From Candidatus Parcubacteria bacterium (GTDB lineage Bacteria; Patescibacteriota; Patescibacteriia; Patescibacteriales; UBA12075): a DNA stretch of 64,000 nt. The notes beneath the pieces were generated by a model, which ran no database searches, had not been told where the DNA came from, and worked only from the letters and a program-made list of their open reading frames with translations. The position numbers were made by a program, and so were the translations under genes. Numbering within the stretch: position 1 is the first letter of the stretch; each line of letters begins with the position of its first letter. Positions 3 to 47,307 of the stretch are shown piece after piece. Where the stretch lies: contig CAWFCE010000002.1 in NCBI GenBank assembly GCA_963814275.1, positions 811,263 to 875,262 on the forward strand, written 5' to 3'.

Positions 3-305
3 GGCAACAGCTGCGCGCAAAAGCTTTCCGATGACGAATCCGGGCTGGTGACAAGTGACGGCGGCTTCGGCAGCTGGAATGGCCCCTATATCGTGCGTAT
101 TCCGCTGGACCCTTGGGGGCGCGAATATTTCTTCGACACCGATTACCAGGTGGATATCGACGGCAATCCCTGCGGCTGCGGCGGCGGGGGCTGCACGGAT
201 GTGATCGTGGTCGGCTCTTATGGCCCGGACGGAGCCGGCAAGCCGGACGCCGGCTCGACCGGCGCGTATGGGTGTGATGATGTTATTAAGATTATCGGGA
301 GATAA
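3..305 (+). CDS. GspG-like pseudopilin (type II secretion / type IV pilus), C-terminal fragment; 5' end lies outside the window
   Basis: The frame is open from base 3. ...SWNGPYIVRIPLDPWGREYFFD... matches the GPY...DPWG-x-x-Y signature of T2SS-G/pseudopilin C-terminal domains. The tail is Gly/Cys-rich. Confidence 0.6.
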   Translation, partial: GNSCAQKLSDDESGLVTSDGGFGSWNGPYIVRIPLDPWGREYFFDTDYQVDIDGNPCGCGGGGCTDVIVVGSYGPDGAGKPDAGSTGAYGCDDVIKIIGR

Positions 306-869: not shown

Positions 870-3092
870 ATGATGATTTCCAAAATGCGAATTTTAGCCC
901 ATTTATTTCTGGCGATTTTTTTGACACTCGGCTTATCCATTTCCCTCCAGTCCCTGCTCGCCGCCTGGACCCCTCCAAGTGCAGCCCCGCCAAACGGCAA
1001 TGTAACCGAGCCATTGTATACTGCCACGCTTTCAGACCCGGTAAATCAAACCAAGTATGGAATTTTGAATTTAATAGACGGATTCACGGTTGACACTAAT
1101 ACGCTTGTAGTAGATGCGACAGGTAATAAAGTCGGTATCGGTATGAATGATCCAAATGTTAAATTGACAATCGGGACCAAAGGCGGCAATGTTGCTAACG
1201 GGACCATTGCCAGTTTCTATAATGGGGATGAAACCACATTAAAAGTATTAGCGGTTGCCAATACGAACGGTACTGGTGCTCACATGCAGTTAATGGAAAA
1301 CAATCCTAACCTATACGGTTTTGACACCTGGTATGACACCGGAAACAATATGCTGTTAATAGATTCGTATGTAAATAATACTAAAACCAACATAATTGAT
1401 ATCACAACAGCCGGCAATGTCGGTATCGGTGCGGTTAATCCAAATGCCCGTTTAACAGTCAAAACAAATACCGCCTTTAATCAGTTCAGCCTGATTACCG
1501 AAGGTGTAATCGCTGGAGGCTGGGCCAGGGGGGCTGATATGCAGTATTACGAATCGGCCGCTCCAACAACTCTGCATCGCGGGTTCGCTTACGGTATGTA
1601 CGGTTCTGGCGATACATTGACCGGAACCTATTTTTCTTCCGTAAAAGATGATGCCGCCCCCTGGACTACGGCGCAATTATTTCTAAATAGTAATGGTAAT
1701 GTCGGAATAGGAACGAATGCGCCGGTAAATCAGCTTACCGTGTTAAATGACGGCTCGGATGCTATTACGATGGCTGTCGGAGGACCTTATCCGGCAGTAA
1801 GTGGAGTGAGCGGAACAAATTATTACAAACAATTAGAAATAAAAGAACCGGTATATAAAATACCCACTGGTTATACTGAAAATGGGTATCGTATCGGTTT
1901 GGCAGTGCAGGGATATGTTTCTACGAGTGATTTTGCGGGTACGTTAAAGGATCAGTATGGAGCATGGATAAGGACTGGGTCTAATTCAAATAATCCGACA
2001 GGTACTATAACAAATTCATATGGTGTATATATAGATAATTTAAGCTCCCCAAACGTAACTATCACAAAATCTTATGGTTTATACCAGTCTTCATCGGGAG
2101 CAATGAACTATTTTGCCGGCAACGTCGGCATCGGGACGAATGCGCCAGGAACAAAGTTGGATGTCGCGGGCGTTATACAGTCAAATGATATGGGGCGTTT
2201 CAAAGGCTGGACGGCGACCGGCGCAACCGGCCGGGCAGTTGAAGTGGGAATTTCCAGCGGTATTGGCTATGTTTATAATTATGATAGAACAGCCAGTACT
2301 TATGGTGAGCTGGATTTTAATAACGCCATCCGCATAGTAGGCAGTAATGGTAATATCGGAATTCATACTACTGCCCCGACCCTGCCAGTAGATATTCGGG
2401 GTTATACCAGGATTGACGGTTCTGCCAGTTATGATGTTTGGATACAGGGGGGTAGTAGTACCGCCGGCGGCGATGCCCGCAATTTAGCGATGTTAGGTAT
2501 AAAGGCAACTGATGTGCTTTCTATAAATCATTCTTCGGAATATGCCGGCGGAACGCAAATCGGTGGTCCTGTTAGCGTAGTCGGCAACCTTACCGTTTCC
2601 GGACAATATCTTGGTGGTTCCTGTGATGTGGCCGAACGCTACCAGGCGGTAGAGGAGGATTCCGAAATACTCGAACCGGGGGATATCGTCTCGTTATCAG
2701 CCGACAATGAACTGAAGATCGAAAAAGTCAGCGCTCCTCTCAGCAGTATGGCGATCGGCGTTTATTCCACTAAGCCGCAGATGGTGATGGGCGATACCGA
2801 TGAGGCCAAAGATCGCAATGACCCGCCGGTCGCCCTGATCGGCCGGGTGCCGGTCAAGGTGACGGACGAGAACGGGCCGGTCAAAGTGGGTGATCTGATC
2901 GTCAGTTCATCGAAGCCCGGCTACGGTATGGGTTGCCGATTGAAAGAGCTGGATTTATCCCTGCCCGAGGATGAGCGTTGGCAGATACTGGCCGACAACG
3001 AGAAATGCCGCAACGCCGCGATCGGCAAAGCGCTCGAGAATCTGGGGGCAGGCGAGGGAAGGATCGAAGTATTTTTAACCAAAGGAAATTAG
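870..3092 (+). CDS. Secreted fibre/beta-helix-like protein with GN[VI]GIG repeats and a conserved C-terminal domain
   Basis: Signal-like N-terminus (LFLAIFLTLGLSISLQSLLA). There are five copies of G-N-x-[VI]-G-I-G-x-x-x-P-x-x-x-L-[TD]-[VI] (GNKVGIGMNDPNVKLTI, GNVGIGAVNPNARLTV, GNVGIGTNAPVNQLTV, GNVGIGTNAPGTKLDV, GNIGIHTTAPTLPVDI). This motif is typical of tail-fibre-like proteins. The C-terminal module is CDVAERY...EPGDIV...PVALIGRVPVKV...VKVGDLIVSS. Confidence 0.75.
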   Translation: MMISKMRILAHLFLAIFLTLGLSISLQSLLAAWTPPSAAPPNGNVTEPLYTATLSDPVNQTKYGILNLIDGFTVDTNTLVVDATGNKVGIGMNDPNVKLTIGTKGGNVANGTIASFYNGDETTLKVLAVANTNGTGAHMQLMENNPNLYGFDTWYDTGNNMLLIDSYVNNTKTNIIDITTAGNVGIGAVNPNARLTVKTNTAFNQFSLITEGVIAGGWARGADMQYYESAAPTTLHRGFAYGMYGSGDTLTGTYFSSVKDDAAPWTTAQLFLNSNGNVGIGTNAPVNQLTVLNDGSDAITMAVGGPYPAVSGVSGTNYYKQLEIKEPVYKIPTGYTENGYRIGLAVQGYVSTSDFAGTLKDQYGAWIRTGSNSNNPTGTITNSYGVYIDNLSSPNVTITKSYGLYQSSSGAMNYFAGNVGIGTNAPGTKLDVAGVIQSNDMGRFKGWTATGATGRAVEVGISSGIGYVYNYDRTASTYGELDFNNAIRIVGSNGNIGIHTTAPTLPVDIRGYTRIDGSASYDVWIQGGSSTAGGDARNLAMLGIKATDVLSINHSSEYAGGTQIGGPVSVVGNLTVSGQYLGGSCDVAERYQAVEEDSEILEPGDIVSLSADNELKIEKVSAPLSSMAIGVYSTKPQMVMGDTDEAKDRNDPPVALIGRVPVKVTDENGPVKVGDLIVSSSKPGYGMGCRLKELDLSLPEDERWQILADNEKCRNAAIGKALENLGAGEGRIEVFLTKGN

Positions 3093-3239: not shown

Positions 3240-3620
3240 ATGCCGACAAATAATAACAGTATAATAAATATCGATACTGGCTTATATCCTCTCGAAGCAG
3301 TAATTAGCGCTAGTTACGTTTTTCTGGATAGGGCGTATATTCTCCTGGATCAACCCAAAACCGGAGTCGTCAAAGTGTCTTTTAAACCCAAAAAGGGTGG
3401 TGCGGCAAAGCTAAAAGACGAATTCATGAATGAATTACTGTTCGCGGTTGAGCGTCTAAATGCCGCCAAAAGAAATAAAAGGATACGCGAATTTATCGTC
3501 GGCCGCGCCCTCTTCAGCTCAGTCAATTATAATGAGGCAAACGCCGGCCTTGAAGCTTTAAGCATGAGTGATAACGAGAAAGATCCACTGGGGATCGGTA
3601 CACCCTGGCAAGAAAAATAA
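3240..3620 (+). CDS. HxsD-like small protein (His-Xaa-Ser system accessory protein-like)
   Basis: 126 aa. The N-terminal 'IDTGLYPLEAVISASYVFLDRAYILLD' resembles, from memory, the Y-x-x-E-A-[VL]...Y-x-F-x-D pattern of HxsD (TIGR03976). It lies directly upstream of an HxsB-like SPASM protein. Not verified by HMM. Confidence 0.4.
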   Translation: MPTNNNSIINIDTGLYPLEAVISASYVFLDRAYILLDQPKTGVVKVSFKPKKGGAAKLKDEFMNELLFAVERLNAAKRNKRIREFIVGRALFSSVNYNEANAGLEALSMSDNEKDPLGIGTPWQEK

Positions 3621-3684
3621 TAAATGCCGGGAAATGTATTAAATAAACTAATATACCGAGGGCAGATTAACAGCAACCAGAGAT

Positions 3685-3888
3685 ATGCAAATGAAATTCA
3701 ATAAGAAAATTTATAATAAAAAAGCGCTTAAGCGGGCAATAACCGATTTTCGAGACTTTGCTACTTTTCAGCTTGAAACAAACGCAAACTATTATATAAT
3801 CAGAACGGCGGAAAAGATAAATACAAAAAATCAGGCGGAGTTAAGCGATGAATTCGGGAACTACGCGCTTGGTTTGTTGAAAAAATGA
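3685..3888 (+). CDS. Second, shorter HxsD-like small protein
   Basis: 67 aa. 'FNKKIYNKKALKRAITDFRDFATFQLE' shows the same pattern as the 3240 product. The stop overlaps the next start (ATGA at 3885-3888). Confidence 0.35.
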   Translation: MQMKFNKKIYNKKALKRAITDFRDFATFQLETNANYYIIRTAEKINTKNQAELSDEFGNYALGLLKK

Positions 3889-5324
3889 AAAAAATAAATC
3901 CAAAAATCAATGATAATCTGACCGCCATCGGATATAAAATGATCAATGGCCAGTATTTGCTGGTCAATTGGTGGGGGTATTACGTATATTTGACTCCCGA
4001 AGAATTCTCTTTTGTCCAGTCGAACCAGGAAGTGGATGATGACAAACTGCATGCCTATCTTTCCAGTAATTTTTTTCTGCGCCGCTGTATCAACACGTCA
4101 TTTTTGACGGATCGTTTTCGGATCAAAAAACGATACCTGCTCGAAGGGCCAACCAGGCACGATATCAAAATTAACCGGCGCAGAAATGACGGATACGTTT
4201 TGGATTGGAGCAGCTCCGACGATAGCAGCGATGCCAGCGAAGCGGTGATGAGTAAAACCACCGCCGACAAGGTATTGGACTCAGTCTTCGGGACTACGGC
4301 GAAAAGAATAAATATCAATCTCAAAGGCGGCGAGCCGTTGATCAATTTCGATTCGGTCGATTATATTATAAAAAGGATAAAAGCCAAGAAAAAAACCGTT
4401 AATAAGCAAGTTACCGTTACGATCCAGACTAACGGTGTACTCCTGGACAGGAAAACGCTTGATTATTTTTTGTCCGCGAAAATAACCATTAAATTGCCAT
4501 TAGCCGGACCGTCGGAAATTCATGACCCGTTATTTCCCAGCGTCAAAAATCACTATGCCCATATTACCGGATTATTGAAACATATAAAAGAAAAATATCC
4601 CAAATTGGCGTACGACAATAAAAGAGCGGTGGTGAATTTCCAACCGGTAGTGACCAAAGATTCGCTCAAACACGGACGCCGTATAGTTGATGAATATGCC
4701 AAACTGGGAATAAAGGAAATCACATTATCTCCCCTGGACCCCTATGGCCTAAATCCGCAAATATGGCGGTGTTATGGATATTCACTCGACAAATTTTTCG
4801 AATTTTACAAATCTGCGCTTGACCGTATAATCGAGCTAAATCTCGGCAAAAAAATAATAAAAGATAATTTTTCCTCGATATTTTTAACAAAAATACTTAC
4901 CGACCGGGACCCCGACCATCCGGAATGGCGTTCGCCGTGCGGCGCTGGTATCGGCCGCCTGAGTTACGATACAGATGGTTCCGTCTTTACCTGCGATGAG
5001 GGTATGGCATTGTCAAAAAAGGGTGATAATGTTTTCCGGCTGGGGAATGCGAATAAAAACGATTATGAAGATTTAGTTACACACCCCACGACCAGGGCGG
5101 TGTGTACTGCTTCATGCGTTGAAGCCTTGCCGGGTTGCGATAATTGTATATATCACCCTTATTGCGGAGTGTGTCCTGTATACAGTTATCACACCTCGGG
5201 TAACATCGTTTCCAACTTTTCGGAAAACGCCAGATGCAAATTAACAACCGGTATCCTGGATAATTTGTTTGTTAAATTGCAGGACAAAAAAACGAAACGC
5301 CTGTTTACGGAATGGGTTTGCTGA
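3885..5324 (+). CDS. HxsB-like SPASM-domain protein that lacks the radical-SAM CxxxCxxC triad (probable pseudo-rSAM)
   Basis: 479 aa. The GGEP strand (NLKGGEPLINFD) is retained. So is a full SPASM Cys set (SPCGAG...DGSVFTCDEG...CTASC...PGCDNCIYHPYCGVCP). At the position where the triad should sit (aa 95-108) the sequence reads KINRRRNDGYVLDW and has no Cys. Confidence 0.7.
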   Translation: MKKINPKINDNLTAIGYKMINGQYLLVNWWGYYVYLTPEEFSFVQSNQEVDDDKLHAYLSSNFFLRRCINTSFLTDRFRIKKRYLLEGPTRHDIKINRRRNDGYVLDWSSSDDSSDASEAVMSKTTADKVLDSVFGTTAKRININLKGGEPLINFDSVDYIIKRIKAKKKTVNKQVTVTIQTNGVLLDRKTLDYFLSAKITIKLPLAGPSEIHDPLFPSVKNHYAHITGLLKHIKEKYPKLAYDNKRAVVNFQPVVTKDSLKHGRRIVDEYAKLGIKEITLSPLDPYGLNPQIWRCYGYSLDKFFEFYKSALDRIIELNLGKKIIKDNFSSIFLTKILTDRDPDHPEWRSPCGAGIGRLSYDTDGSVFTCDEGMALSKKGDNVFRLGNANKNDYEDLVTHPTTRAVCTASCVEALPGCDNCIYHPYCGVCPVYSYHTSGNIVSNFSENARCKLTTGILDNLFVKLQDKKTKRLFTEWVC

Positions 5325-5358
5325 TATTTTAATTATTTTTAAATTTTTTCTATATCAT

Positions 5359-5598
5359 ATGGCCAAAAAGAAATCAAAGCTTACCCCAAAATATCCCAAT
5401 ATCAAAAGGGATATTAAAGATTTTTTACTGAACGAAGAAGGCAATATTACGAAAAAGGATATCGTTAAAATGGGTTTGGGCCTGATGGTGCTGGGCTTGG
5501 GTCTGAAATCGAATATCGATGCAAAAGCCGAAGCGCCCAACAACACGGTTTGCGACAGATGCAGTGCTCAGCTGGGTCAATGCCATCCCTGGTATTGA
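5359..5598 (+). CDS. Small membrane-anchored peptide with a 3-Cys C-terminal tail (candidate modified peptide)
   Basis: ATG at 5359 gives 79 aa: MAKKKSKL...KDFLLNEEGNITKKDIVKMGLGLMVLGLGLKSNIDAKAEAPNNTVCDRCSAQLGQCHPWY. The order is a basic N-terminus, one hydrophobic helix, then a CxxC...C tail. The longer track ORF starting at 5269 overlaps the preceding gene and was not used. Confidence 0.5.
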   Translation: MAKKKSKLTPKYPNIKRDIKDFLLNEEGNITKKDIVKMGLGLMVLGLGLKSNIDAKAEAPNNTVCDRCSAQLGQCHPWY

Positions 5599-5613: not shown

Positions 5614-6564
5614 ATGTCAATGTCATATTACGCTAAAATTACAATTTTTTTTCTGGGTTGCCTTGCCTTAGGTGTGGTAATAGGAACCATTGGCGGCGTT
5701 GCTTATCATTGGCACAAAATGAACCAAATTTCTGAAAATATACCCGTAGTCAATCCAAGCCCAACGCCATCGGATAATCTGTCCGCCTCCACGTCCGCTC
5801 AGAATAGCGAAATATCAGTATCAAGTACCACGACAATCGTTGAAAATTTTATACCGCTCACAATAGAAGAAAGGACAGCTTGTATTACCCACCTAAAAAA
5901 TTCCGATGAGAACGAGTTGGCCAACCAGGCGAAAAATATCAGGTATCCCCATGGGGCAGTGGCGGATGATGAGAGGGATCGGATAAATGCAGCACAAAAA
6001 TATTTGTTATTGTATTTTATGGGTAATTATAACTTCGAAAGAAAAGACGAGGATTACGAAAAAATAGTCGATTATATAAATAATATGGATAATATAACCG
6101 AGGATACGAGAAATGTGGAAATGACGGGTTTGACCCAGCTAGCCGATAGTCCCGCCACTTCTTTTACGATTGCCCTGGCAGACGCTGATTATAATTATAT
6201 ATGTCCCGATAAATTATCCGATTTATGCATAAACCGCACCAGAATTTCCGGAGCGCCGGTTTATGAGGAGTGGTGCCAAAACTTATGCGATGATATTACA
6301 GAATATCCGGTCGACACACAACGATACAAACAGGAAATTACGGAATTCACCGACTGGCAGAATGATAAAAATTATGCATATGGACAAAGTACTTGGCGGG
6401 CGGCAATGGCATATCGGCTGGAAGGCAGAGACAAAGCGGTTAGCGTATGCGACAATTTAAGAGAGAATGATGTTAAAAACATTTGTATCGGTGAAGTTGA
6501 TGATTATGATAAATTTAACCCCGAGATATCCTTCGATAAATTTGTCAACATCGTTTGCCAGTAA
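5614..6564 (+). CDS. Membrane-anchored hypothetical protein with a Cys-rich ectodomain
   Basis: 316-aa ORF with an N-terminal TM helix (ITIFFLGCLALGVVIGTIGGVAY), a Ser/Thr-rich linker and 9 Cys after the TM helix. No recognisable family. Confidence 0.6.
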   Translation: MSMSYYAKITIFFLGCLALGVVIGTIGGVAYHWHKMNQISENIPVVNPSPTPSDNLSASTSAQNSEISVSSTTTIVENFIPLTIEERTACITHLKNSDENELANQAKNIRYPHGAVADDERDRINAAQKYLLLYFMGNYNFERKDEDYEKIVDYINNMDNITEDTRNVEMTGLTQLADSPATSFTIALADADYNYICPDKLSDLCINRTRISGAPVYEEWCQNLCDDITEYPVDTQRYKQEITEFTDWQNDKNYAYGQSTWRAAMAYRLEGRDKAVSVCDNLRENDVKNICIGEVDDYDKFNPEISFDKFVNIVCQ

Positions 6565-10074: not shown

Positions 10075-11655
10075 ATGGAAATGAAATTGGTTTTTTTCCT
10101 GCCATTTTATAACATTCCGCAGCATGACCTCGTTTCGTGGCTGCCGCTATCCGCACCCAATCTGATCGGCAACATTAAAAAAGATTTTCCCACAGTCGGT
10201 TTTTCGGTTATCGAACTGCACAAACTTTTTAAAGAGGTATTTACCGGCCGGGAAATGGAAAATTTACGTAAAGATCTGTATAGATTCTTCAAAACCAATC
10301 CAACGGCCAAAGACCTGGAATTTTATGAGAAATATTTCAAACAGATCGATAAAATCCTGGATCTGGGGCAATATGATCATTTCCTTTTTTCCCATTATTG
10401 CGCCTGGATAATCGGCATTAAAGCGAATATGCTTTTTGCCAGGTATTTGAAAAATAAATATCCTGACAAAAAAATAATTTTTGGCGGAGTTTACGGCTTC
10501 GGCAAGAATTACGACAAATGTTCTTTTGAGGAATTTGGTTATATCGATGCTACTGTAGTCGGCTATGGTGAAAATTCCGCCAAAGAAATATTGCGTAGTT
10601 TGCTGGCCGGTAAAAAACTGAAAAAACTTTATTGCACTTATACTCCGCCGCACGAAGTGATAGAGAATTTGCCGGATTATCATTCCATCATAGATTTGGA
10701 TAAATCCAGATATAATGCCGCTCAACTTGAGAAATTATATAATATCGAGCTGCCCCGCAGCCGTAGCAGGGAAAGGGTATTGTTTATTCCTTATAAATTC
10801 AATATCGGGTGCAATTGGCAGAATTGCGCATATTGCCGGCAGTCCTATGGCATCAATTTCAAGCCAAGACCGGCATATTACACCAAGGACCATCAGACAA
10901 TAATTTCCGAATTGAAATATTTGAAAAAAACATATAAATCGGATTATTTCATATTCAAAAGCAATAATTTCAATATCAGCCTCGGGTGGTGTAAAAAATT
11001 ACTTAGCCGGATGATCGATGAAAAGCTGGATATACTTTGGTCCGATTCATTCAACCTGAGCGTAATTGACGATGAACTGCTGGAGATGTTGGCGGCAGCG
11101 GGATGCTTTCGCATGGACCTGGGAGTGACTACCCTGAACCCAAATCTTCAAAAAATGTACAATAATCGTTTGCAGGACAATGGATTGCTGGAAAATCTCA
11201 AAAAAATATCTTCACATGGGATTTGGACACATATCAATTTGATAGTTAATCTGCCCTTCCAGTATTCGATTGATGGTGAAATAGAAACTCTGAAAAAATA
11301 TATCGCTTACATTGACGGTGTAGCTATAAATAATTACCGCCGCACGCCTGATACGGATATCAGCATCAATTACAAAAAATATAAAATAGACAAAATACAT
11401 GTCGAATTCAAAGAAAATAATAAGCGGTATTATTTGTATTATATCGAAAATGAATTCAAGGGCGGACTGGAACTGAGAAAAAAGATGTTCGCCGCCAATC
11501 ATTTTAAAATGATAAATTTTTTCAAAGATCAGGGGCTCATCAATACAGCTGATTATGCACATTTGTATTTATTGGGGTATTTATACAAGCAATTCGGTTT
11601 TAAGGAAAAAACAAAGATCAAGAGGATTATTACTGAAGCTAAGCCTAAATATTGA
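10075..11655 (+). CDS. B12-binding-domain (class B-like) radical SAM enzyme with a Cx4Cx2C cluster motif
   Basis: The N-terminal Rossmann-like segment (KKIIFGGVYGF...IDATVVGYGENSAKEIL) resembles a cobalamin-binding domain. The cluster motif IGCNWQNCAYC has Cys246/251/254, encoded at nt 10810-10836. Confidence 0.65.
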   Translation: MEMKLVFFLPFYNIPQHDLVSWLPLSAPNLIGNIKKDFPTVGFSVIELHKLFKEVFTGREMENLRKDLYRFFKTNPTAKDLEFYEKYFKQIDKILDLGQYDHFLFSHYCAWIIGIKANMLFARYLKNKYPDKKIIFGGVYGFGKNYDKCSFEEFGYIDATVVGYGENSAKEILRSLLAGKKLKKLYCTYTPPHEVIENLPDYHSIIDLDKSRYNAAQLEKLYNIELPRSRSRERVLFIPYKFNIGCNWQNCAYCRQSYGINFKPRPAYYTKDHQTIISELKYLKKTYKSDYFIFKSNNFNISLGWCKKLLSRMIDEKLDILWSDSFNLSVIDDELLEMLAAAGCFRMDLGVTTLNPNLQKMYNNRLQDNGLLENLKKISSHGIWTHINLIVNLPFQYSIDGEIETLKKYIAYIDGVAINNYRRTPDTDISINYKKYKIDKIHVEFKENNKRYYLYYIENEFKGGLELRKKMFAANHFKMINFFKDQGLINTADYAHLYLLGYLYKQFGFKEKTKIKRIITEAKPKY

Positions 11656-11679: not shown

Positions 11680-12789
11680 ATGAATAATTCTCAACAAAAA
11701 AGATTGGAAAAATATACCCGGTTAAGGATTCAAACGATAGACGACGGGATCATAAGGTCGGGTCCGGATTTTGTTCGGATCGGGGTATGCCAGAAATGCA
11801 ATTTCGATTGTGTGATGTGTTGGCACCATTCGTCGTTTTTCGAAAACAACCGGGAAAATAGGGGCAAAACCGAATTATTGGATGAGAACATAATTTTCGA
11901 CACGATTAACGAAGCGGAAAAAATGGGGACGCGGGGGATTTTATTTTCCGGGTCCGGCGAGCCATTCCTGCATCCGAAGATGATGGATTTTTTAAAAGTC
12001 GCCAAAGGAAAGGGTTTTCGGGTAAGAGTGCAAACAAACCTCTCCTTGGTCAGCGATCCGTCACTTTTGGCCAAATTAAAAGTCGATGTTATTGCGGTCA
12101 ATTTATGTGCGGCGACAGCCGATACATACGTCAAGATCCATCCCAACCAGAAAAAAAGCGGTTTCAAAAGAACGCTTGCAAAAATGGAAGAGTTAATTGC
12201 CTGCTCAGATCCGGAAATAGAGATAAGAATGACGAATATAATTTCCAGATTGAACTATAATGAGATATGTGAAATGTTCAAGCTCGGTTATGACATGAAC
12301 GCAAGTTTGCACTTGGAATTAGCCGATTATTCTCCGGTGCTAAAAGACAAAATCGGATTGGATGAAATACAAAAAAAGGAAATTATCAGGCAGTTGGACT
12401 CTCTCGACGAAAAATATTTACTCTACAAGAAAACCAATTTGCCAGATTTTCGGGAACAGTTGGCGCATTCGGGAATCGGGTTAGTAAAATTCAAATCCTG
12501 CCTGATGGGCCATCTGTATGCCTTTGTAAACGAATATGGTAACGTTTATTTTTGTAATTACGGCGGGAATGAATATTTGATGGGCAATTTATATGAAAAT
12601 ACTTTATCGGAAATTTGGAATTCCCGTAAATATGAGGAATTGAGGGACAGGTTGTTTAAAGGAGTCGATGTATTGCCGGCATGTCAAAAATGCTTAAATG
12701 AGCGGGGTTGGAATTTCAAAACGCGATTTTTCGTGGACCCGGATATGGCGAAGTCCGTATTGAATGACGTCCTGGAAAGCATAAAATAG
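11680..12789 (+). CDS. Radical SAM protein with a C-terminal SPASM/twitch-like Cys motifs
   Basis: The triad is CQKCNFDCVMC and the SAM strand is FSGSGEPFLHP. The C-terminus has SCLMG...NVYFCNYGG...LPACQKCLN. Confidence 0.8.
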   Translation: MNNSQQKRLEKYTRLRIQTIDDGIIRSGPDFVRIGVCQKCNFDCVMCWHHSSFFENNRENRGKTELLDENIIFDTINEAEKMGTRGILFSGSGEPFLHPKMMDFLKVAKGKGFRVRVQTNLSLVSDPSLLAKLKVDVIAVNLCAATADTYVKIHPNQKKSGFKRTLAKMEELIACSDPEIEIRMTNIISRLNYNEICEMFKLGYDMNASLHLELADYSPVLKDKIGLDEIQKKEIIRQLDSLDEKYLLYKKTNLPDFREQLAHSGIGLVKFKSCLMGHLYAFVNEYGNVYFCNYGGNEYLMGNLYENTLSEIWNSRKYEELRDRLFKGVDVLPACQKCLNERGWNFKTRFFVDPDMAKSVLNDVLESIK

Positions 12790-12792: not shown

Positions 12793-13917
12793 ATGATTTA
12801 TAGAAAATACGGAAAAACCAACAAAAAAATTTCGATATTGGGCCTGGGAGGGTCGAGATTCAGGATCGACGCGGGCGAAAGGAATTTCGATCGATCATTA
12901 AAATTGGTGAGAAAGGCATTCGAATCGGGAATAAATTTTTTCGATACCTCGCCGCATTATTGCCATGGCAGAAGCGAAGAAATATTCGGCGAAGCATTGT
13001 CGGGTATAAAAGGGAAATACTATATTTCCACCAAAAGCCGGGTTATAGAGGATCCGGATGCCGATTCGGTAAGAAGAAGAATAGAAAGCTCACTCAAAAG
13101 ATTGAAAAAGGAAAAAATCGATTTTTACGATATGTGGGCCGTATCGTCAATGGCGGAATTCCGAATGATTATGAAGAAAAAGGGTCCTTATGAGGGGGCG
13201 CTAAAAGCGAAAGATGAGGGGCTGGTCGACCATATTACATTTTCCAGCCGGCTGCCGGATAAAGAAATAATCGAAATGATCAAAAGCGGATATTTCGACG
13301 GTGTGACCCTGAGTTATAACATTATGAATTATCCGTCCAGCGAGAACGCGGTCAAGGAGGCCGCCCGGGCGGGGATGGGGGTCGCGATAATGAATCCGTT
13401 GAGCGGAGGAATCATACCCGGACATCCCGAGCGTTTCACTTTTTTACAGGGGAAAAATAGCGAGAGTATCGCCCAGGCTGCGTTGCATTTTGTCATGGCC
13501 ACTCCCGGTGTCACTACCGCTATTTGCGGTACGGGATCATTGGTGAATTTGGAAAGAAATATTGCCGCCGGCGGGAATAGAGGGATTTTGTCCGCCGGGA
13601 AACTTAAGGATTTAAAAAATAAAATCGATCACGGTCTTTTCGATATGTGCAACAGTTGTAACCGTTGCCTGGCGAGTTGTTCTCGCGGCATTCATATCCC
13701 CCTGCATATGGATATCTATAATTTGAAAATCATGAAGGAGGAGGATGAGGTCGTGGGGAAATATTTGTCAGACAAGAAGAAACATGCGCTTTACAGCAGT
13801 TATAAGCCAGGAACGAATTGCAACGGCTGCAGGGAATGCGAAAAAAAATGTCCGAAAAAATTGAATATATACGATAGATTAAGATATTTAAATGAATATA
13901 TAACAACGGACAAATGA
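12793..13917 (+). CDS. Aldo/keto reductase fused to a C-terminal 2x[4Fe-4S]-type ferredoxin motif
   Basis: The AKR N-terminus is YRKYGKTNKKISILGLGGSRF...GINFFDTSPHY. The C-terminal Cys motifs are CNSCNRCLASC and CNGCRECEKKCP. Confidence 0.75.
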   Translation: MIYRKYGKTNKKISILGLGGSRFRIDAGERNFDRSLKLVRKAFESGINFFDTSPHYCHGRSEEIFGEALSGIKGKYYISTKSRVIEDPDADSVRRRIESSLKRLKKEKIDFYDMWAVSSMAEFRMIMKKKGPYEGALKAKDEGLVDHITFSSRLPDKEIIEMIKSGYFDGVTLSYNIMNYPSSENAVKEAARAGMGVAIMNPLSGGIIPGHPERFTFLQGKNSESIAQAALHFVMATPGVTTAICGTGSLVNLERNIAAGGNRGILSAGKLKDLKNKIDHGLFDMCNSCNRCLASCSRGIHIPLHMDIYNLKIMKEEDEVVGKYLSDKKKHALYSSYKPGTNCNGCRECEKKCPKKLNIYDRLRYLNEYITTDK

Positions 13918-14843
13918 ACAGCAGAAAAGAAACTTACAATTTTACGCTTCCTAGCGGCATAGAGATCGAGCCTACTAATTTGTGCGATTTAAAATGCCCG
14001 TTATGTCCGAGCGGCAACGGGAAAATAGATGAGTGGCGCCTTCCCAGAGGCATGATGAATCTGCGGCAATTCAAAGATATTATCGATCAGGTGAAAAATT
14101 TCGTCAAATATATCGTATTGTGGGGCTTAGGGGAGCCAACCCTGGTTCCCGATTTGGATTTGATGATAGATTACGCCGCCGGCAATAAGATATCCGTTAT
14201 TACGAGTATCCACGGCAACCATGATAAAAAGTTGAACCGTAAATTGATGGAAGCCGAACCGTATAAGATAATCTTCGCGATAGACGGTTTAAGCCAGGAA
14301 ACTTACGGAATATACCGCCAGGGCGGGAATTTCGAGAAAGCTCTCAGTAATCTCAAAGATTGCGTTAACATCAAAAAAGAAACCGGCCAAAAATATCCGC
14401 TAATATATTGGCAGTTTATAGTTATGAAACACAACGAAAAAGAAATATCCGATCTGAAAAAAATGGCGGAAAAAATCGGGGTAGACGGCCTAATGCTGAA
14501 AAAATACGCATCGACCAGGGAAGATAAATTCAGGCCGGAGAACCCGGAATATATCAGGCACGAACCGGAAGAAGAGAAATATAAATGTAAGTTCTTGTTC
14601 GATAGACCGATGATATTCTTTAACGGTGATGTCAGTGCATGCAGCCATGATTTCAGGATGAAGCATATTATGGGAAATATTTTTAAGGAGCCATTCGCGG
14701 ATATATGGAACAATGATCGGTTCAGGAAATTCAGACATTCATATTTTGACAATTCCCTGTTCGAATGCCAAGGCTGCCGCGCAAGGTCTTATGCCGATCA
14801 TTTTATCGAATATACTTTTCCCGGAAAGAGGCGTAAAGGATAG
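13914..14843 (+). CDS. Radical SAM protein (SPASM/twitch-like C-terminus)
   Basis: The triad is NLCDLKCPLCPSG. LWGLGEPTL serves as the SAM strand. The C-terminus has FFNGDVSACSHD...FECQGCRA. The start overlaps the previous stop (ATGA). Confidence 0.8.
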   Translation: MNSRKETYNFTLPSGIEIEPTNLCDLKCPLCPSGNGKIDEWRLPRGMMNLRQFKDIIDQVKNFVKYIVLWGLGEPTLVPDLDLMIDYAAGNKISVITSIHGNHDKKLNRKLMEAEPYKIIFAIDGLSQETYGIYRQGGNFEKALSNLKDCVNIKKETGQKYPLIYWQFIVMKHNEKEISDLKKMAEKIGVDGLMLKKYASTREDKFRPENPEYIRHEPEEEKYKCKFLFDRPMIFFNGDVSACSHDFRMKHIMGNIFKEPFADIWNNDRFRKFRHSYFDNSLFECQGCRARSYADHFIEYTFPGKRRKG

Positions 14844-15984: not shown

Positions 15985-17451
15985 ATGAACGGTCGTATGG
16001 CAACAAAAACTGGAAAAAAGATCGTTAAAATTCACGATATTACCGATTTCGAAAAATTCATTCATAACAGGGAGCTAGCGCTCAAGGCTGAAAGCGATAT
16101 TGAAATCTGTGCGAATCCGGAAATATTTTCAAGCATATATAATATTCTGAATATGTTATGGGCAAAAAATGTCCGAAAAGTCGATTTGGTTTTTACCGAA
16201 GAACTAATCAGGAAATCCGGTATAAAAAAGTTGGCTGCCAGATTTTCCGGCCTACGCTATTACTTTCTGGATAAATTGATATTGAGGGCGGCGAATATAC
16301 CATATTGCCTGATCAAACAGCCGGAGGGAGTAATATTTTGGCAGGGGAAAAAGGGAGAATTCGTTAAATTTAATCTTTGCCGGATATGCAAGTACCGCCA
16401 GTTCTGCCGCGGTGTGCACAGATCGATTTCCGATATCCATATCAGGGAAATTTTGCGAACTGTTCCTGATCGGCCCCGGGAAGTGATGATTGAGATTGAA
16501 GAAAAATGTAATTTGAATTGCGAATTCTGTTTTAACAAAAATAGTTTTGCCAAACGCGGCAGAAATGTCGAAAACAAACTTAGTACATCAATTGTTAAAA
16601 ATATAATAGACAGCATAGCGGACGCCGATATCGGAACCGTCAGGTTTACGGGAGGAGAGCCGTTACTCAGGAGCGATATTTGGGAGCTGGCGGAATTTGG
16701 CAAGAAAAGAAACCTGGAAGTCCGGCTGAATACGAACGGCATACTGATAAAAGATTACGCAACAGCCGAAAAAATCGCCGTTAATTTCGATAACATTTTA
16801 ATACCGATTCAGTATTCGGATATATCGATGGGGAATAATGCCGCGAAAATTAAACTTAAGGGGATTAAACTGCTCAAAAAAGCGGGTGCCAAGACAATCC
16901 GTATCGGCACGGTCGCCACTAATGAAGTTATAGATAATTTAACCCAAGTCCACGCCTTCGTCAAAAAACTACCAATCGATAAATGGGAATTATACCGGAC
17001 GATCGCTGCCCCCGGCCGCCATACCGGATATACCAGATCCCGGGTGGCAACGCTGGTTGAAGGGCTGATAAAGATCAAAAACGAAACCGGAGTTGTCCAT
17101 TATATAATAAATGCCATCCCTTTTTGTAGTTATAATCCATTAAAAATGCGGCAGGTCGCCGCCGGCGCCAATGCCGTAGACGGGCACGAAAGGTTCGTTA
17201 TCGATCCGCGCGGATTTGCGAAACCGATATATTATATGGACAGGAATATCGGCGAACCGGGTGATATTATGGGCGCCTGGAACCACCAATTCATGAAAAA
17301 AATGAGAACCCTGAAGTTTGTTCCGAAAGAATGCAAGGATTGCGTTTTTATTGAAAAATGCCGTGGTGGTTGTCGGTTTTCCGCCTATTCCGAAAACGGA
17401 AATTTTTCCGCGCCGGATCCTCTGATGGATGCCCGTAATATTATCAAGTGA
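15985..17451 (+). CDS. Radical SAM/SPASM protein with a ~160-aa N-terminal extension
   Basis: The triad is EEKCNLNCEFCFN and the SAM strand is RFTGGEPLLR. The SPASM end is PFCSYNP...CKDCVFIEKCRGGCRFSAY. An extra CRICKYRQFC motif sits before the core. Confidence 0.8.
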   Translation: MNGRMATKTGKKIVKIHDITDFEKFIHNRELALKAESDIEICANPEIFSSIYNILNMLWAKNVRKVDLVFTEELIRKSGIKKLAARFSGLRYYFLDKLILRAANIPYCLIKQPEGVIFWQGKKGEFVKFNLCRICKYRQFCRGVHRSISDIHIREILRTVPDRPREVMIEIEEKCNLNCEFCFNKNSFAKRGRNVENKLSTSIVKNIIDSIADADIGTVRFTGGEPLLRSDIWELAEFGKKRNLEVRLNTNGILIKDYATAEKIAVNFDNILIPIQYSDISMGNNAAKIKLKGIKLLKKAGAKTIRIGTVATNEVIDNLTQVHAFVKKLPIDKWELYRTIAAPGRHTGYTRSRVATLVEGLIKIKNETGVVHYIINAIPFCSYNPLKMRQVAAGANAVDGHERFVIDPRGFAKPIYYMDRNIGEPGDIMGAWNHQFMKKMRTLKFVPKECKDCVFIEKCRGGCRFSAYSENGNFSAPDPLMDARNIIK

Positions 17452-23577: not shown

Positions 23578-24130
23578 CGGCCTGGGTAACGGGCTGGTCG
23601 AATATTTCCGGCCCGGATCGAGAGGTATTAGCCGCCGTAACGGATACGATATTAACACAAACCGAGACAAGATCGTCGACCTGGCCCGTAGTTTTGATGT
23701 ATTCGTTAATCTGGCGAATTCCGGATTCAACCAGGCCTTAATGCTGTATGATATATTTAACGATTGGGAAAAAATCGATAAAAAAGGATATATAATCAAT
23801 GTCGGTTCTTACGGAACTTATAATCCGGGAGATGCGTGGCGACCCTGGCTGGCCGCCAAATTCGCCCTGGATATCGCCAATAAACAGTGCTGTAAAAAAA
23901 TCGAAGAAAAAAACTTGCCATTCCGCTCCACGAATATAAGATTCGGAATGCTTGATACCGATAAAAGCCGGGCTAAACCGAATTGGGAAGGGGTTGGCCA
24001 TCGGGCAGAAGATATCGCAAAATTGATCATATATCTGTGGAGCCAATTCAAAAGTAATGCACCGTATGATTTCAACGAAATTACGGTAAATAATATAAAA
24101 AATAATTTGGGAGAATTGCTACAAAAATGA
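23531..24130 (+). CDS. Short-chain dehydrogenase/reductase-like protein (atypical)
   Basis: The Rossmann motif is LITGGLDGLGNGL and NLANSG corresponds to NNAG. At the expected YxxxK position the sequence reads W-L-A-A-K, so catalytic competence is uncertain. Confidence 0.45.
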   Translation: MPKNIHPKFLITGGLDGLGNGLVEYFRPGSRGISRRNGYDINTNRDKIVDLARSFDVFVNLANSGFNQALMLYDIFNDWEKIDKKGYIINVGSYGTYNPGDAWRPWLAAKFALDIANKQCCKKIEEKNLPFRSTNIRFGMLDTDKSRAKPNWEGVGHRAEDIAKLIIYLWSQFKSNAPYDFNEITVNNIKNNLGELLQK

Positions 24131-25509: not shown

Positions 25510-26773
25510 CCTATCGAAAAATTCGAATTTTTGCTTCGCCCCATGGATCCATTTGGTCATAACGCAGGGGGGAGATATCAGGCCTTGTAATGATTTCCAA
25601 ATGAATTTTGGCAGCATAAAAAATGATAATTTGGAATCGGTTTTCAACAATGAAAATTTCAAAAAACTGAGGGACGACCTTTTACACGGACGATTACATC
25701 CGGGGTGCCGGGGTTGCCGGGAAAAAGAAAGGTTGATCGGGTACTCCCGCAGGATCAGCATAGACAGTCAAATCAAGGAGTGGGGAGAGCGAAAGGAAAA
25801 GTGGAAACTTAAAACCGAAGTTACGGCAAAAAATATAAAATGGCTGGATATAAGATTGAGTAATTACTGCAATTTGAAATGCCGGCATTGCTATCCGGCG
25901 CTAAGTACGCGCTGGTTCGAAGATATCAAAGGGTTTGAGGGTGTGAAATTCACCAAGGATTCGCAGCGCCTTTCTTTGGAAGAATATTTTCACGCTTATC
26001 GCAAAAGAAAAGGCGAGAACCTGCCGTTAAAGAAGATTTACGAGGTGATTGACGCCGTGGGACGCCCTTTAAAGCGGATAGAGTTCAAGGGGGGAGAACC
26101 GTTTCTGCAAAAAGAACTGCCGATATTTTTGGAATATTATCTGGATAATATATCTCCGGAAAAGAGCAGCCAAAAAACCACCGATAAAACCCGGTTTGTG
26201 TTCGTCACAAACGGCACCATTATCCCTCCCAAAATAAAAGAATTGATCGCAAGATTGGGTTTGGCCGATATCTGCTATTCAGTTGAAGGTATAAGCAATG
26301 CTTATGATTACATCAGGGGTGACGGGAAATATCGGCTTAAAGATATTAGGAAAAATATTTTGGAATTGGATGAATTGCCGAATGTAAAAACTTCGTTTAG
26401 GATTACCTGCATGGCTTATAATATATTCGAAATCCCCAGGATATATTCCTGGATAAGCCGATTACCGCTCAAAAGAAACGCCAAGAATATAATTATCGAG
26501 AATTATGTAGTCAGACCGGATTTTTTGAACGTAATGGTGATCCCGTACGATATTAGGCACCGGGCGGCCAAGGGTATAAATAAGATATTAAAAAACAAAA
26601 AGAAAAATCTCGACGCTTCTATATACAGATTTTATGAATCACTAAACGAGCGGGTTGACGGTTTTTCCAGAAAAAACTTGGAGAATTTCAAAATATACAC
26701 GGCCACTTTGGACAAAATCAGGGGCACTGACATCAAAGAGGCGATACCACAAATAAGAAAACTTTTTTTATAG
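25493..26773 (+). CDS. Radical SAM protein with an N-terminal 4-Cys module, paralogue 2 of 7
   Basis: FCFAPWIHLVITQGGDIRPC...PGCRGCR, then the triad LSNYCNLKCRHCYPALSTRW, then EFKGGEPFL. Confidence 0.85.
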   Translation: MMQSNDLSKNSNFCFAPWIHLVITQGGDIRPCNDFQMNFGSIKNDNLESVFNNENFKKLRDDLLHGRLHPGCRGCREKERLIGYSRRISIDSQIKEWGERKEKWKLKTEVTAKNIKWLDIRLSNYCNLKCRHCYPALSTRWFEDIKGFEGVKFTKDSQRLSLEEYFHAYRKRKGENLPLKKIYEVIDAVGRPLKRIEFKGGEPFLQKELPIFLEYYLDNISPEKSSQKTTDKTRFVFVTNGTIIPPKIKELIARLGLADICYSVEGISNAYDYIRGDGKYRLKDIRKNILELDELPNVKTSFRITCMAYNIFEIPRIYSWISRLPLKRNAKNIIIENYVVRPDFLNVMVIPYDIRHRAAKGINKILKNKKKNLDASIYRFYESLNERVDGFSRKNLENFKIYTATLDKIRGTDIKEAIPQIRKLFL

Positions 26774-41648: not shown

Positions 41649-41662
41649 TAAATGAAAGTATT

Positions 41663-43252: not shown

Positions 43253-43262
43253 CGCCCGAACT

Positions 43263-47305: not shown

Positions 47306-47307
47306 TT

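What the first reader, a model, noticed from the sequence alone, without database searches (positions are those of the whole stretch)
3240..5598. Hxs-like (His-Xaa-Ser system-like) module with two HxsD-like genes, one HxsB-like gene and a non-HxS peptide
The gene order is: small protein (126 aa), small protein (67 aa), 479-aa SPASM protein, 79-aa membrane-anchored peptide. This recalls the HxsA-D system, which has a peptide with a signal-anchor and a repeat tail, two paired rSAM maturases and the small HxsD.

The composition here is off-pattern in three ways. The D-like gene is duplicated. Only one maturase-like gene is present and it has lost its SAM-cluster cysteines. The peptide tail is CDRCSAQLGQCHPWY rather than His-Xaa-Ser repeats. 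The stop/start overlap at 3885-3888 suggests translational coupling.

The function of canonical Hxs systems is itself unknown, so a divergent version sitting at the edge of the rSAM supercluster is worth attention. The HxsD and HxsB assignments are from memory of family patterns, not from a search.
Basis: inference. Interest (0 to 1): 0.7.

Follow-up and report, generated by a model that had tools for sequence, protein, structure and literature searches.

The report
Radical-dead Hxs cassette with repeat-less peptide
This is a rare, evolutionarily maintained offshoot of the His-Xaa-Ser (Hxs) peptide-maturation system in which the maturase has lost its radical-SAM iron-sulfur site and its partner peptide has lost all His-Xaa-Ser repeats, which suggests the maturase also has a job that needs no radical chemistry.

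Summary
The four ORFs exist as described, and the from-memory Hxs assignments hold up: HxsD (47 bits, cut-off 50), HxsD_rel (70, cut-off 41), HxsB (324 bits, E 2e-96, cut-off 370), and an HxsA3/A4-type leader.

Two "off-pattern" traits are normal for an NCBI-curated environmental subtype (HxsA4 / HxsD_rel / rare HxsC4). These are the two D-like genes and the absence of HxsC. The closest intact locus, L003, is syntenic over six genes and passes every cut-off.

The unusual part is real and rare:
- All three SAM-cluster cysteines are gone, while every SPASM cysteine and the fold are kept (AF2 pLDDT 90).
- Only 3 of about 220 full-length homologues are like this. They form a 100%-bootstrap clade under purifying selection (dN/dS about 0.15).
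- A fourth, probably independent case is L094.
- Every cysteine-less HxsB with a visible peptide (3 of 3) sits beside a repeat-less, Cys-rich peptide ending in Tyr. All 36 informative intact loci have 4 to 23 HxS repeats.

Most likely reading: a selected pseudo-radical-SAM scaffold or chaperone for a small exported Cys-rich peptide.

Canonical HXS is now known to be an anti-phage system, so the "function unknown" premise is outdated. The neighbouring rSAM supercluster is unrelated.

The parts
3240..3620 (+). HxsD-like protein (D1, 126 aa)
   Evidence: TIGR03976 HxsD, 47.1 bits, E 2.4e-12, just under the cut-off of 50. Precomputed Pfam PF27806 HxsD hit on the identical protein in L001. Orthologue in L003 scores 58.2, above the cut-off. 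D1-like genes lie upstream of HxsB in 65 of 82 related loci.
3685..3888 (+). HxsD_rel protein (D2, 67 aa); its TGA stop overlaps the next gene's ATG (ATGA at 3885-3888)
   Evidence: NF038315 HxsD_rel, 69.6 bits, above the cut-off of 41. Present in L002, L003, L091, L092 and 39 of 82 loci. Overlap read directly in the sequence.
3885..5324 (+). HxsB-like pseudo-radical-SAM/SPASM protein (479 aa)
   Evidence: TIGR03978 HxsB, E 1.8e-96, 323.7 bits against a cut-off of 370, matched full length. No CxxxCxxC. AF2 model pLDDT 90.3, pTM 0.91. Best structural match is CteB 5wgg over the full length.
3885..4154 (+). N-terminal beta3-alpha3 domain (residues 1-90), RRE-type peptide-binding domain
   Evidence: Secondary structure of the AF2 model and full-length alignment to CteB. 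This is the best-conserved region within the Cys-less clade: identity 0.53-0.81, dN/dS 0.08.
4155..4259 (+). Former radical-SAM cluster loop (residues 91-125, RHDIKINRRRNDGYVLDWSSS...)
   Evidence: Aligned with the canonical VVTLRCNHxCxYCHASA. The three Cys are replaced by R/Y-or-G/D here, by other residues in P0124, and deleted in P0002. Lowest pLDDT in the model (61-71). Identity within the clade is only 0.09-0.46.
4905..5321 (+). SPASM/auxiliary Fe-S region (residues 341-479) with all cysteines retained
   Evidence: C352, C370, C418, C421, C427, C430 and C451 are invariant across 83 sequences. C407 and C411 are kept in all three Cys-less proteins.
5359..5598 (+). HxsA3/A4-type precursor peptide without HxS repeats (79 aa)
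   Evidence: NF038309 HxsA3 N-terminal 46 positions, 35.9 bits, E 4.7e-9, below the cut-off of 65. The leader aligns with the HxsA4 peptides of L003, L091 and L092. No HxS repeats.
5548..5595 (+). Conserved Cys-rich tail VCDRCSAQLGQCHPWY
   Evidence: Same pattern in L090 (VCDECGPPAPCYPY) and P0192 (ICSRCYDIPGDPVECYPWY). It aligns with the Cys-rich stretch that precedes the HxS repeats in L003 and L091.
5614..6564 (+). 316-aa membrane-anchored Cys-rich protein, a clade-specific accessory gene directly downstream of the peptide
   Evidence: No Pfam or NCBIfam family. jackhmmer finds orthologues at the same position in L003, L005, L006, L007, L035 and L091.
870..3092 (+). 740-aa secreted or surface protein upstream; conserved neighbour in the closest loci
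   Evidence: Shares its N-terminus (LTLGLSISLQSLLAAW.PP) with the 970-aa Peptidase_S74 protein of L003, and both N- and C-termini with the 790-aa protein of L091, each directly upstream of HxsD. No family hit of its own.

Best explanation
The locus is a derived form of the environmental 'type 4' Hxs cassette (HxsD, HxsD_rel, HxsB, HxsA4), which is common in Patescibacteria and usually has no HxsC.

In an ancestor of this lineage, HxsB lost the three cysteines that hold the SAM-cleaving [4Fe-4S] cluster, along with other SAM-site residues. It therefore cannot perform radical chemistry. The partner peptide lost its whole His-Xaa-Ser repeat block, which is the presumed radical target.

Both genes were then kept by selection. 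HxsB' retains an RRE-type N-terminal domain, the barrel scaffold and a complete SPASM two-cluster domain. The peptide retains its conserved basic leader, its hydrophobic segment and a short Cys-rich tail ending in an aromatic residue.

Inferred mechanism: HxsB', together with the two HxsD-like proteins, recognises the conserved leader. It then acts as a non-radical scaffold or chaperone for processing and export of a small Cys-rich peptide to the cell surface. This would be the radical-independent half of what HxsB/C/D do for HxsA in E. coli.

Shown: homology, loss of the catalytic residues, retention of the fold, coupling to repeat loss, and purifying selection. Inferred: the chaperone/export role and the fate of the peptide.
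For: Homology:
- HxsD, HxsD_rel, HxsB and HxsA-leader hits for the four ORFs.
- Six-gene synteny with L003, whose components pass all NCBIfam cut-offs (HxsD 58/50, HxsD_rel 74/41, HxsB 506/370, HxsA4 70.5/55), and with L091.

Loss of the catalytic site:
- No CxxxCxxC in P0001, P0002 or P0124, against about 217 homologues and 82 loci that have it.
- 26 of 88 family-invariant positions are lost in all three, concentrated in C100/C104/Y106/C107, Q147, C203/S205/D207 and R217. The other 62 are kept, including all SPASM Cys.

Still functional:
- The three Cys-less proteins form a clade in 100 of 100 bootstraps.
- dN/dS between L002 and L090 is 0.15 overall, 0.08 in the N-terminal domain and 0.27 in the old cluster loop.
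- The AF2 model is confident (pLDDT 90) and matches CteB full length.

Coupling with the peptide:
- Window, L090 and L094 each have a Cys-less HxsB and a repeat-less Cys-rich peptide ending in Y.
- 36 of 36 informative intact loci have 4-23 HxS repeats.
- L094 does not group with the trio (28 of 100 bootstraps), which suggests a second independent event.
- The tail motif [VI]C[DS]xC...C[HY]P(W)Y is shared by the window, L090 and P0192.

No catalytic partner in view:
- No HxsC, second HxsB or HxS-repeat ORF anywhere in the 64 kb.
Against: - There are no expression or biochemical data.
- Only four lineages are known, and three of them sit on contigs of 2 kb or less. The rest of their cassettes, and any partner rSAM, cannot be seen.
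- dS between L002 and L090 is about 1.1, near saturation, so dN/dS is approximate.
- The rest of the 1.27-Mb genome could not be read, so an active HxsB or HxsC elsewhere is not excluded.
- The long branch of the Cys-less clade could inflate its bootstrap support.
- Repeat-less peptides also occur where the state of HxsB is unknown (L093, L095, L096, L097). The L096 HxsB fragment looks canonical at positions 358 and 374, so the coupling may not be absolute.
- In E. coli, processing itself depends on the rSAM cluster. A radical-independent processing role is therefore an extrapolation.
Confidence: 0.6

Rival explanations
1. Decaying relic. The cassette is a non-functional remnant of a type-4 Hxs system that has lost its catalytic site and substrate repeats but has not yet accumulated stop codons.
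For: Loss of the catalytic Cys triad and other SAM-site residues. Long branch, with mean distance to intact HxsB of 1.2 against 0.66 among intact ones. HMM scores are below the curated cut-offs. L094 also has a deletion of about 115 aa in the barrel.
Against: - Three lineages only 43-72% identical all keep full-length ORFs.
- dN/dS is about 0.15 between two lineages that both already lack the cluster.
- All SPASM Cys and 62 of 88 invariant positions are retained.
- The N-terminal domain is better conserved than in intact pairs.
- The peptide tail motif is conserved across lineages.
- The translationally coupled ATGA overlap is retained.
Confidence: 0.12
2. Non-catalytic subunit of an active pair. 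HxsB' is a pseudo-enzyme that presents the peptide to an active radical-SAM partner encoded elsewhere. Candidates are an HxsC4-like or PapB-like rSAM, or one of the rSAM/SPASM genes 6-12 kb downstream. That partner would modify the Cys-rich tail, for example with thioether links.
For: Canonical Hxs uses paired rSAMs (PMC13128918). 36 of 82 related loci have a second HxsC-like or PapB-like rSAM nearby. The window has rSAM/SPASM genes at 11680-12789, 13914-14843 and 15985-17451. HxsB's nearest families are thioether-forming Cys-peptide maturases: PapB, SCIFF and CcpM.
Against: None of the window's rSAMs scores as HxsC, HxsC4 or PapB. The closest intact cassettes (L003, L091, L005-7) have no second rSAM within 5-6 kb and different downstream neighbours. 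The downstream cluster looks like sugar or polymer biosynthesis.
Confidence: 0.15
3. New SPASM-only chemistry. The two auxiliary Fe-S clusters of HxsB' act directly on the three cysteines of the peptide, through thiol/disulfide redox, cluster or metal hand-over, or Cys ligation to the open site of auxiliary cluster I. The product would be a small metal-binding or disulfide-locked surface peptide.
For: Strict retention of all SPASM Cys together with retention of exactly the Cys-rich part of the peptide. Clade-specific fixed replacements Q358R and R374M in the SPASM region. In E. coli HxsB, mutating the second cluster only reduces processing, so that cluster has a role separable from SAM cleavage.
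Against: Purely inferential, and none of the tools used here can test it. Retention of the SPASM Cys may be structural only.
Confidence: 0.1

Closest known systems
Type-4 Hxs cassette as curated in NCBIfam (HxsA4 NF038313, HxsD_rel NF038315, HxsB TIGR03978, HxsD TIGR03976, rare HxsC4 NF038332), e.g. locus L003 (JGI Ga0118719_1002483) and L091
   Same: Same six-gene order: large secreted protein, HxsD, HxsD_rel, HxsB, short peptide, ~330-aa membrane protein. Same ATGA coupling of D_rel and B. Same leader, hydrophobic segment, Cys-rich stretch and C-terminal Tyr in the peptide. No HxsC nearby. Type IV pilus genes upstream.
   Different: L003 and L091 HxsB keep CxxxCxxC and all SAM-site motifs (506 bits), and their peptides carry 8 or more HxS repeats. 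In the window the cluster ligands and the repeats are both gone, and HxsB, HxsD and the peptide fall below the curated cut-offs.
Canonical HXS anti-phage system of E. coli and other Pseudomonadota (HxsD-HxsB-HxsC-HxsA; Li et al., Nat Commun 2026, PMC13128918)
   Same: Homologous HxsB and HxsD. The precursor has an N-terminal export or processing region and a C-terminal functional region. HxsB/C/D are proposed to act as dedicated chaperones or processing factors for export.
   Different: - The canonical system has two active rSAMs, and the cluster-Cys mutants are null.
[quoted passage not shown]
- Gene order is D-B-C-A in 99.6% of systems, and 99.7% are in Pseudomonadota.
- Here there is no HxsC, a dead HxsB, a 79-aa peptide, no repeats and an extra HxsD_rel.
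CteB (SCIFF thioether maturase, PDB 5wgg) and related RRE-rSAM-SPASM RiPP maturases (anSME, TigE, ChlB, SuiB)
   Same: Same three-part fold: N-terminal RRE, partial TIM barrel and SPASM domain with two auxiliary clusters. Foldseek E 1e-20 over 487 columns.
   Different: Only 18% identity. These are active enzymes with the CxxxCxxC cluster. The sequence match to CteB starts only after the missing cluster loop, at residue 121.
TIGR04347 'pseudo-SAM/SPASM' family (haloarchaeal), known only as a curated family name
   Same: Precedent for rSAM/SPASM homologues that, judging only by the family's name, lack the canonical SAM-cluster motif. The name appears; the rest is from memory.
   Different: Unrelated lineage. 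It is not among the best 25 NCBIfam hits of the window protein, and it has no Hxs context.

Membership tests
Canonical His-Xaa-Ser (HXS) system | HxsB: radical SAM/SPASM maturase scoring above the TIGR03978 cut-off | tested here: not met
   323.7 bits against a cut-off of 370, although E is 1.8e-96 and the match is full length. Intact relative L003 scores 506.
Canonical His-Xaa-Ser (HXS) system | HxsB CxxxCxxC radical-SAM cluster (essential in E. coli: C98A/C101A is null) | tested here: not met
   All three Cys are replaced, and only C68 and C296 lie upstream of the SPASM region. The E. coli requirement is from PMC13128918.
Canonical His-Xaa-Ser (HXS) system | Second rSAM, HxsC (TIGR03977), adjacent to HxsB | tested here: not met
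   No HxsC or HxsC4 hit among the window's rSAM genes. phmmer with HxsC-like queries finds nothing. The rest of the genome could not be tested.
Canonical His-Xaa-Ser (HXS) system | HxsD (TIGR03976) | tested here: inconclusive
   47.1 bits against a cut-off of 50, E 2.4e-12. Pfam PF27806 HxsD hit on record.
Canonical His-Xaa-Ser (HXS) system | HxsA with tandem His-Xaa-Ser repeats | tested here: not met
   Zero HxS repeats in the peptide, and none in any frame of the window.
Type-4 Hxs cassette (NCBIfam HxsA4 / HxsD_rel / HxsC4) | HxsD_rel (NF038315) next to HxsB | tested here: met
   69.6 bits against a cut-off of 41, with a 4-nt overlap with HxsB.
Type-4 Hxs cassette (NCBIfam HxsA4 / HxsD_rel / HxsC4) | HxsA4/A3-type precursor above cut-off | tested here: not met
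   Only the leader matches: HxsA3 positions 1-46, 35.9 bits against a cut-off of 65, with no HxsA4 hit listed. The L003 peptide scores 70.5 against 55.
Type-4 Hxs cassette (NCBIfam HxsA4 / HxsD_rel / HxsC4) | Conserved gene order D - D_rel - B - A (plus X316-like gene in the nearest clade) | tested here: met
   Synteny with L003, L091, L092, L005-7, L035, L002 and L090.
RRE-rSAM-SPASM RiPP maturases | SPASM motif CX9-15GX4C ... CX2CX5CX2-3C ... C | tested here: met
   C352-x12-G365-x4-C370, then C418-x2-C421-x5-C427-x2-C430, then C451, all retained.
RRE-rSAM-SPASM RiPP maturases | Overall fold including the N-terminal RRE | tested here: met
   AF2 pLDDT 90.3. Top Foldseek hit is CteB 5wgg at E 1e-20, full length.
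RRE-rSAM-SPASM RiPP maturases | SAM cleavage, Fe-S content and peptide modification | not testable with these tools
   Requires biochemistry.

The most novel reading that the evidence does not exclude
HxsB has a second, radical-independent function: leader-directed chaperoning, processing or export, possibly using its SPASM clusters on cysteines. This function is strong enough to be selected on its own. In this lineage it matures a new class of small exported peptide with three cysteines and an aromatic C-terminus, encoded next to type IV pilus genes. That peptide would be an envelope effector, for example a gatekeeper of DNA or phage entry, that works without HxS repeats and without any radical-SAM modification.
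Probability: 0.2. Interest if true: 0.7.

Novelty: new variant of a known kind. Interest (0 to 1): 0.45.

Why it matters
HXS has just been shown to be an anti-phage system whose maturation chemistry and HxsB/HxsC/HxsD division of labour are unresolved (PMC13128918).

This locus is a natural separation-of-function variant. The radical site and the HxS repeats vanished together, probably at least twice. That argues the repeats are the radical target, and that HxsB also has a radical-independent role worth keeping.

It also shows that Hxs-type cassettes are widespread outside Pseudomonadota, particularly in Patescibacteria where they often sit beside type IV pilus operons. The published survey did not capture this.

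The variant gives experimentalists a compact four-gene system for testing leader recognition and export without radical chemistry.

Tried and rejected
- **HxsC in the window.** NCBIfam scans of 20 neighbouring proteins and phmmer with HxsC-like or PapB-like queries found none.
- **Link to the rSAM supercluster.** Rejected. It is made of NF033640 twitch-domain paralogs, sugar-nucleotide genes and a glycosyltransferase. It is not conserved next to related cassettes.
- **More clade members in JGI metagenomes.** The automatic patterns found nothing. A clade-specific PEWRSPCGAG DNA pattern gave 5 loci, none of them a relative.
- **PADLOC.** Only weak pVip noise.
- **Rfam.** No hit in the window.
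- **Source organism.** Relatives are Patescibacteria, including MAGs deposited as Saccharibacteria.
- **Contigs of other repeat-less peptides (P0192, P0224, P0236, P0212).** All too short to show the HxsB motif.
- **P0279 (371 aa, no Pfam hit).** It looked like another Cys-less case but is an N-terminally cut gene call with canonical motifs.
- **AF2 of HxsD-like D1 from a single sequence.** pLDDT 43, unusable.
- **Literature search for pseudo-rSAM/SPASM precedents.** Nothing found.
- **Alternative genetic code (TGA read through).** Considered and rejected, because all three TGA stops coincide with the ends of homologues.
Full report
**Observation.** The mechanical ORF for the peptide starts at TTG 5269, but homologous peptides begin at the ATG (MAKKK...). 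The 67-aa gene's TGA overlaps the 479-aa gene's ATG (ATGA, 3885-3888). The 479-aa protein has no CxxxCxxC, and its only cysteines before residue 340 are C68 and C296. A full SPASM set follows: C352, C370, C407, C411, C418, C421, C427, C430 and C451. The peptide has a basic 37-residue N-region (net +5), a 12-residue hydrophobic stretch and the tail VCDRCSAQLGQCHPWY.

**Family assignments.**
- ORF1 matches HxsD TIGR03976 at 47.1 bits (cut-off 50, E 2.4e-12).
- ORF2 matches HxsD_rel NF038315 at 69.6 bits (cut-off 41).
- ORF3 matches HxsB TIGR03978 at 323.7 bits (cut-off 370, E 1.8e-96, full length).
- ORF4 matches the leader half of HxsA3 NF038309 at 35.9 bits (cut-off 65).

Pfam sees Radical_SAM in ORF3 only from profile position 48 onwards, just under threshold. 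The from-memory assignments were therefore right in kind. Three of the four proteins fall just short of, or well short of, the curated membership scores.

**What is normal and what is not.** The nearest intact relative, P0003 (42% identical), lies in locus L003. That locus has the same six-gene order: large secreted protein, HxsD, 66-aa HxsD_rel, HxsB (again with a 4-nt overlap), short peptide, and a ~330-aa membrane protein. It has no HxsC. Its parts pass every NCBIfam cut-off: HxsD 58.2, HxsD_rel 74, HxsB 506, and the peptide as HxsA4 at 70.5. L091 and L092 repeat the pattern. Among 82 related loci with an intact HxsB, mostly from Patescibacteria, Omnitrophota, Elusimicrobia and Myxococcota MAGs, a D1-like gene occurs in 65, a D2-like gene in 39, and both in 37. 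About 36 of the 82 have a second rSAM nearby, either HxsC4-like or PapB-like, sometimes fused. The window's closest clade does not. The 'duplicated D' and the 'single maturase' are therefore features of a subtype that NCBI curators already model (HxsD_rel, HxsA4, 'rare' HxsC4), not oddities of this locus.

**The unusual part.** Of about 220 full-length HxsB homologues retrieved in three database searches, only P0001 (the window), P0002 and P0124 lack the cluster motif. All 82 HxsB genes in the other loci keep it.
- The canonical VVTLRCNHxCxYCHASA reads IKINRRRNDGYVLDWSSS in the window and LIVTRQKDKNHSTEKNNLW in P0124. It is removed by a 10-residue deletion in P0002.
- Of the 88 positions that are at least 90% conserved in 80 intact sequences, 26 are lost in all three. 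These cluster in SAM-site motifs: C100, C104, Y106, C107, D121, Q147, C203/S205/D207 and R217. The other 62 are kept, including every SPASM cysteine.
- The three form a clade in 100 of 100 NJ bootstraps, on a long branch.
- Between L002 and L090, which both already lack the cluster, dN/dS is about 0.15. It is 0.08 in the N-terminal domain, 0.27 in the former cluster loop, 0.15 in the core and 0.18 in the SPASM region. dS is about 1.1, so the figure is approximate.
- The N-terminal domain is better conserved within this clade than between intact pairs of higher overall identity. The barrel core is less conserved.
- An AlphaFold2 model built on 83 sequences is confident (pLDDT 90.3, pTM 0.91) except in the old cluster loop. 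It shows a beta3-alpha3 N-terminal domain. Its best structural match is the SCIFF maturase CteB over the full length, followed by anSME, TigE, ChlB and SuiB. By sequence, CteB aligns only from residue 121.

The protein is thus a folded, selected RRE-barrel-SPASM protein that cannot bind the SAM-cleaving cluster.

**Coupling with the peptide.** Every complete or informative peptide next to an intact HxsB has 4 to 23 HxS repeats and ends in an aromatic residue (36 of 36). The window's peptide has none, and no HxS-repeat ORF exists in any frame of the 64 kb.
- The 73-aa peptide next to P0124 ends ...QVCDECGPPAPCYPY.
- An exhaustive search of 1.84 billion representatives found P0192, which ends ...ICSRCYDIPGDPVECYPWY. 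It also found other repeat-less relatives: P0196, P0212, P0224 and P0236.
- Aligned with L003 (…CSGLDCLPPKCSGGAHNSHSSHASHG…) and L091 (…CNCCDPCPNHCSHSSHSNHS…), the leader, hydrophobic segment, Cys-rich stretch and C-terminal Tyr are retained. Only the repeat block is missing.
- The contig of P0196 (L094) carries the last 283 residues of its HxsB. The cluster loop is again cysteine-free (GPELHIMAVAAHGGKGAKGPEMSEETA), GGE has become GGK, about 115 residues of the barrel are deleted, and all SPASM cysteines remain.
- L094 groups with intact HxsBs rather than with the trio (4-clade support 28 of 100), so it is probably a second, independent loss.

All three Cys-less HxsBs with a visible peptide are paired with a repeat-less Cys-rich peptide. 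This amounts to only two evolutionary events. The other repeat-less peptides sit on contigs too short to show the HxsB motif. One HxsB fragment, in L096, looks canonical at two diagnostic positions.

**Mechanism.** In E. coli, HXS blocks phage DNA entry. HxsB, HxsC and HxsD are all needed for N-terminal processing and export of HxsA. The HxsB C98A/C101A mutant abolishes processing, whereas mutating the second cluster only reduces it. Each HxS repeat is essential, and a +8 Da modification sits on the last repeat. The authors suggest the Hxs proteins also act as dedicated chaperones or translocation factors (PMC13128918). The window's HxsB' is a natural equivalent of the cluster-null mutant, so it cannot work as E. 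coli HxsB does. The regions that selection has kept are the RRE-type domain, the SPASM clusters, both HxsD-like proteins, the leader and the Cys-rich tail. Given that, the best-supported reading is a non-radical scaffold or chaperone complex that recognises the leader and escorts or processes a small Cys-rich peptide for export. Possible signal-peptidase-like sites (AKA|E here, ASA|Q in L090) would release a product of 16-22 residues; this is inference from the sequence.

Three rivals remain:
- A relic. The selection signals argue against it.
- A non-catalytic partner of an active rSAM encoded elsewhere. This is not excluded, because the rest of the genome could not be read.
- New SPASM-only chemistry on the cysteines.

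**Context.** The rSAM 'supercluster' at 10-37 kb consists of NF033640 twitch-domain rSAM paralogs, a B12-rSAM, rSAM/SPASM proteins, an AKR-ferredoxin, an aminotransferase, nucleotidyltransferases, a glycerophosphotransferase and a glycosyltransferase. None scores as HxsC, and related cassettes have different downstream neighbours. The conserved neighbours in the nearest clade are the X316-like gene downstream (7 loci) and a type IV pilus operon upstream (L003, L005, L007, L009, L012, L035, L069). The window's left edge is a T2SSG-like pseudopilin fragment. The cassette is chromosomal, with enolase, iPGM and UppP further along.

**Novelty and verdict.** The only experimental Hxs paper in the searched library reports 99.7% of systems in Pseudomonadota and does not mention these environmental types. 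NCBIfam models show that curators know the type-4 architecture. The literature searches here found no description of a cysteine-less HxsB paired with a repeat-less peptide. I rate it a new variant of a known kind, of moderate interest. It is a clean natural separation-of-function case for a newly characterised defence system. The supporting evidence is comparative only and rests on four lineages.

Noticed in passing
window 10075-37356: A dense run of about 15 radical-SAM genes. At least five are paralogs of the NF033640 'twitch domain-containing radical SAM' family: 24127-25509, 25493-26773, 28019-29374, 31919-33229 and 33253-34473. Two unscanned ORFs (26775-27989, 29358-30542) have the cluster motif at a similar position. 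Also present: a B12-rSAM (10075-11655), three rSAM/SPASM proteins, an AKR-ferredoxin fusion, an aminotransferase and an EpsD-like glycosyltransferase. It looks like a glycan or surface-polymer modification cluster and is not part of the Hxs cassette.
   Followed up: partly
window 3-305; loci L003, L005, L007, L009, L012, L035, L069 upstream of HxsD: In the nearest relatives, type-4 Hxs cassettes sit directly downstream of a type IV pilus operon (T2SSE ATPase, T2SSF, several N_methyl pilins, Peptidase_A24). The window's left edge is a T2SSG-like pseudopilin C-terminus. This may matter because canonical HXS acts on DNA entry at the envelope, but it could be lineage-specific synteny only.
   Followed up: partly
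window 870-3092; L003 2257-5169; L091 1859-4231: Large secreted proteins directly upstream of HxsD share an unusual conserved N-terminus (LTLGLSISLQSLLAAW.PP.A.PP). The L003 copy ends in a Peptidase_S74 (tail-spike chaperone) domain. The window and L091 copies share a different C-terminus. The window protein has no family hit.
   Followed up: partly
window 5614-6564: A 316-aa protein with an N-terminal membrane anchor and a Cys-rich extracytoplasmic part. It has no Pfam or NCBIfam family. It is conserved immediately after the Hxs peptide in seven loci of the nearest clade only.
   Followed up: partly
window 40000-50500: GC content jumps from about 0.34-0.43 to 0.49-0.60. The region holds enolase, iPGM, a second metalloenzyme-family protein, a 976-aa protein with repeated MopE-type Cu-binding motifs and a 1045-aa protein with a He_PIG Ig domain. 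Long spurious antisense ORFs occur there.
   Followed up: partly
L094 1-852 (JGI Ga0599220_0172722): An HxsB-like gene with no cluster cysteines, GGE changed to GGK and an in-frame deletion of about 115 aa in the barrel, but an intact SPASM domain. It sits next to a repeat-less peptide with a 10-proline run (…CPCVAPPPPPPPPPPSCTSCTSGGDPCY). It is probably an independent second loss of the radical site.
   Followed up: partly
L021 2177-3946; L044 7485-9413: Fusion proteins of 589-642 aa that join a PapB-like rSAM N-terminal half to an HxsC/HxsC4-like C-terminal half, directly downstream of HxsB. Similar ORFs of 600-710 aa occur in L040, L062, L064 and L065.
   Followed up: no
L004 1-5053: Another Hxs locus (intact HxsB P0005) lies next to a run of five rSAM genes, one of which is HxsC4-like (1813-2724). 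Adjacency of Hxs to rSAM gene runs therefore recurs, although the partner genes differ from those in the window.
   Followed up: partly
window 1-64000: No Rfam family reaches its gathering score anywhere in the 64 kb, so no tRNA, rRNA or riboswitch was detected.
   Followed up: no
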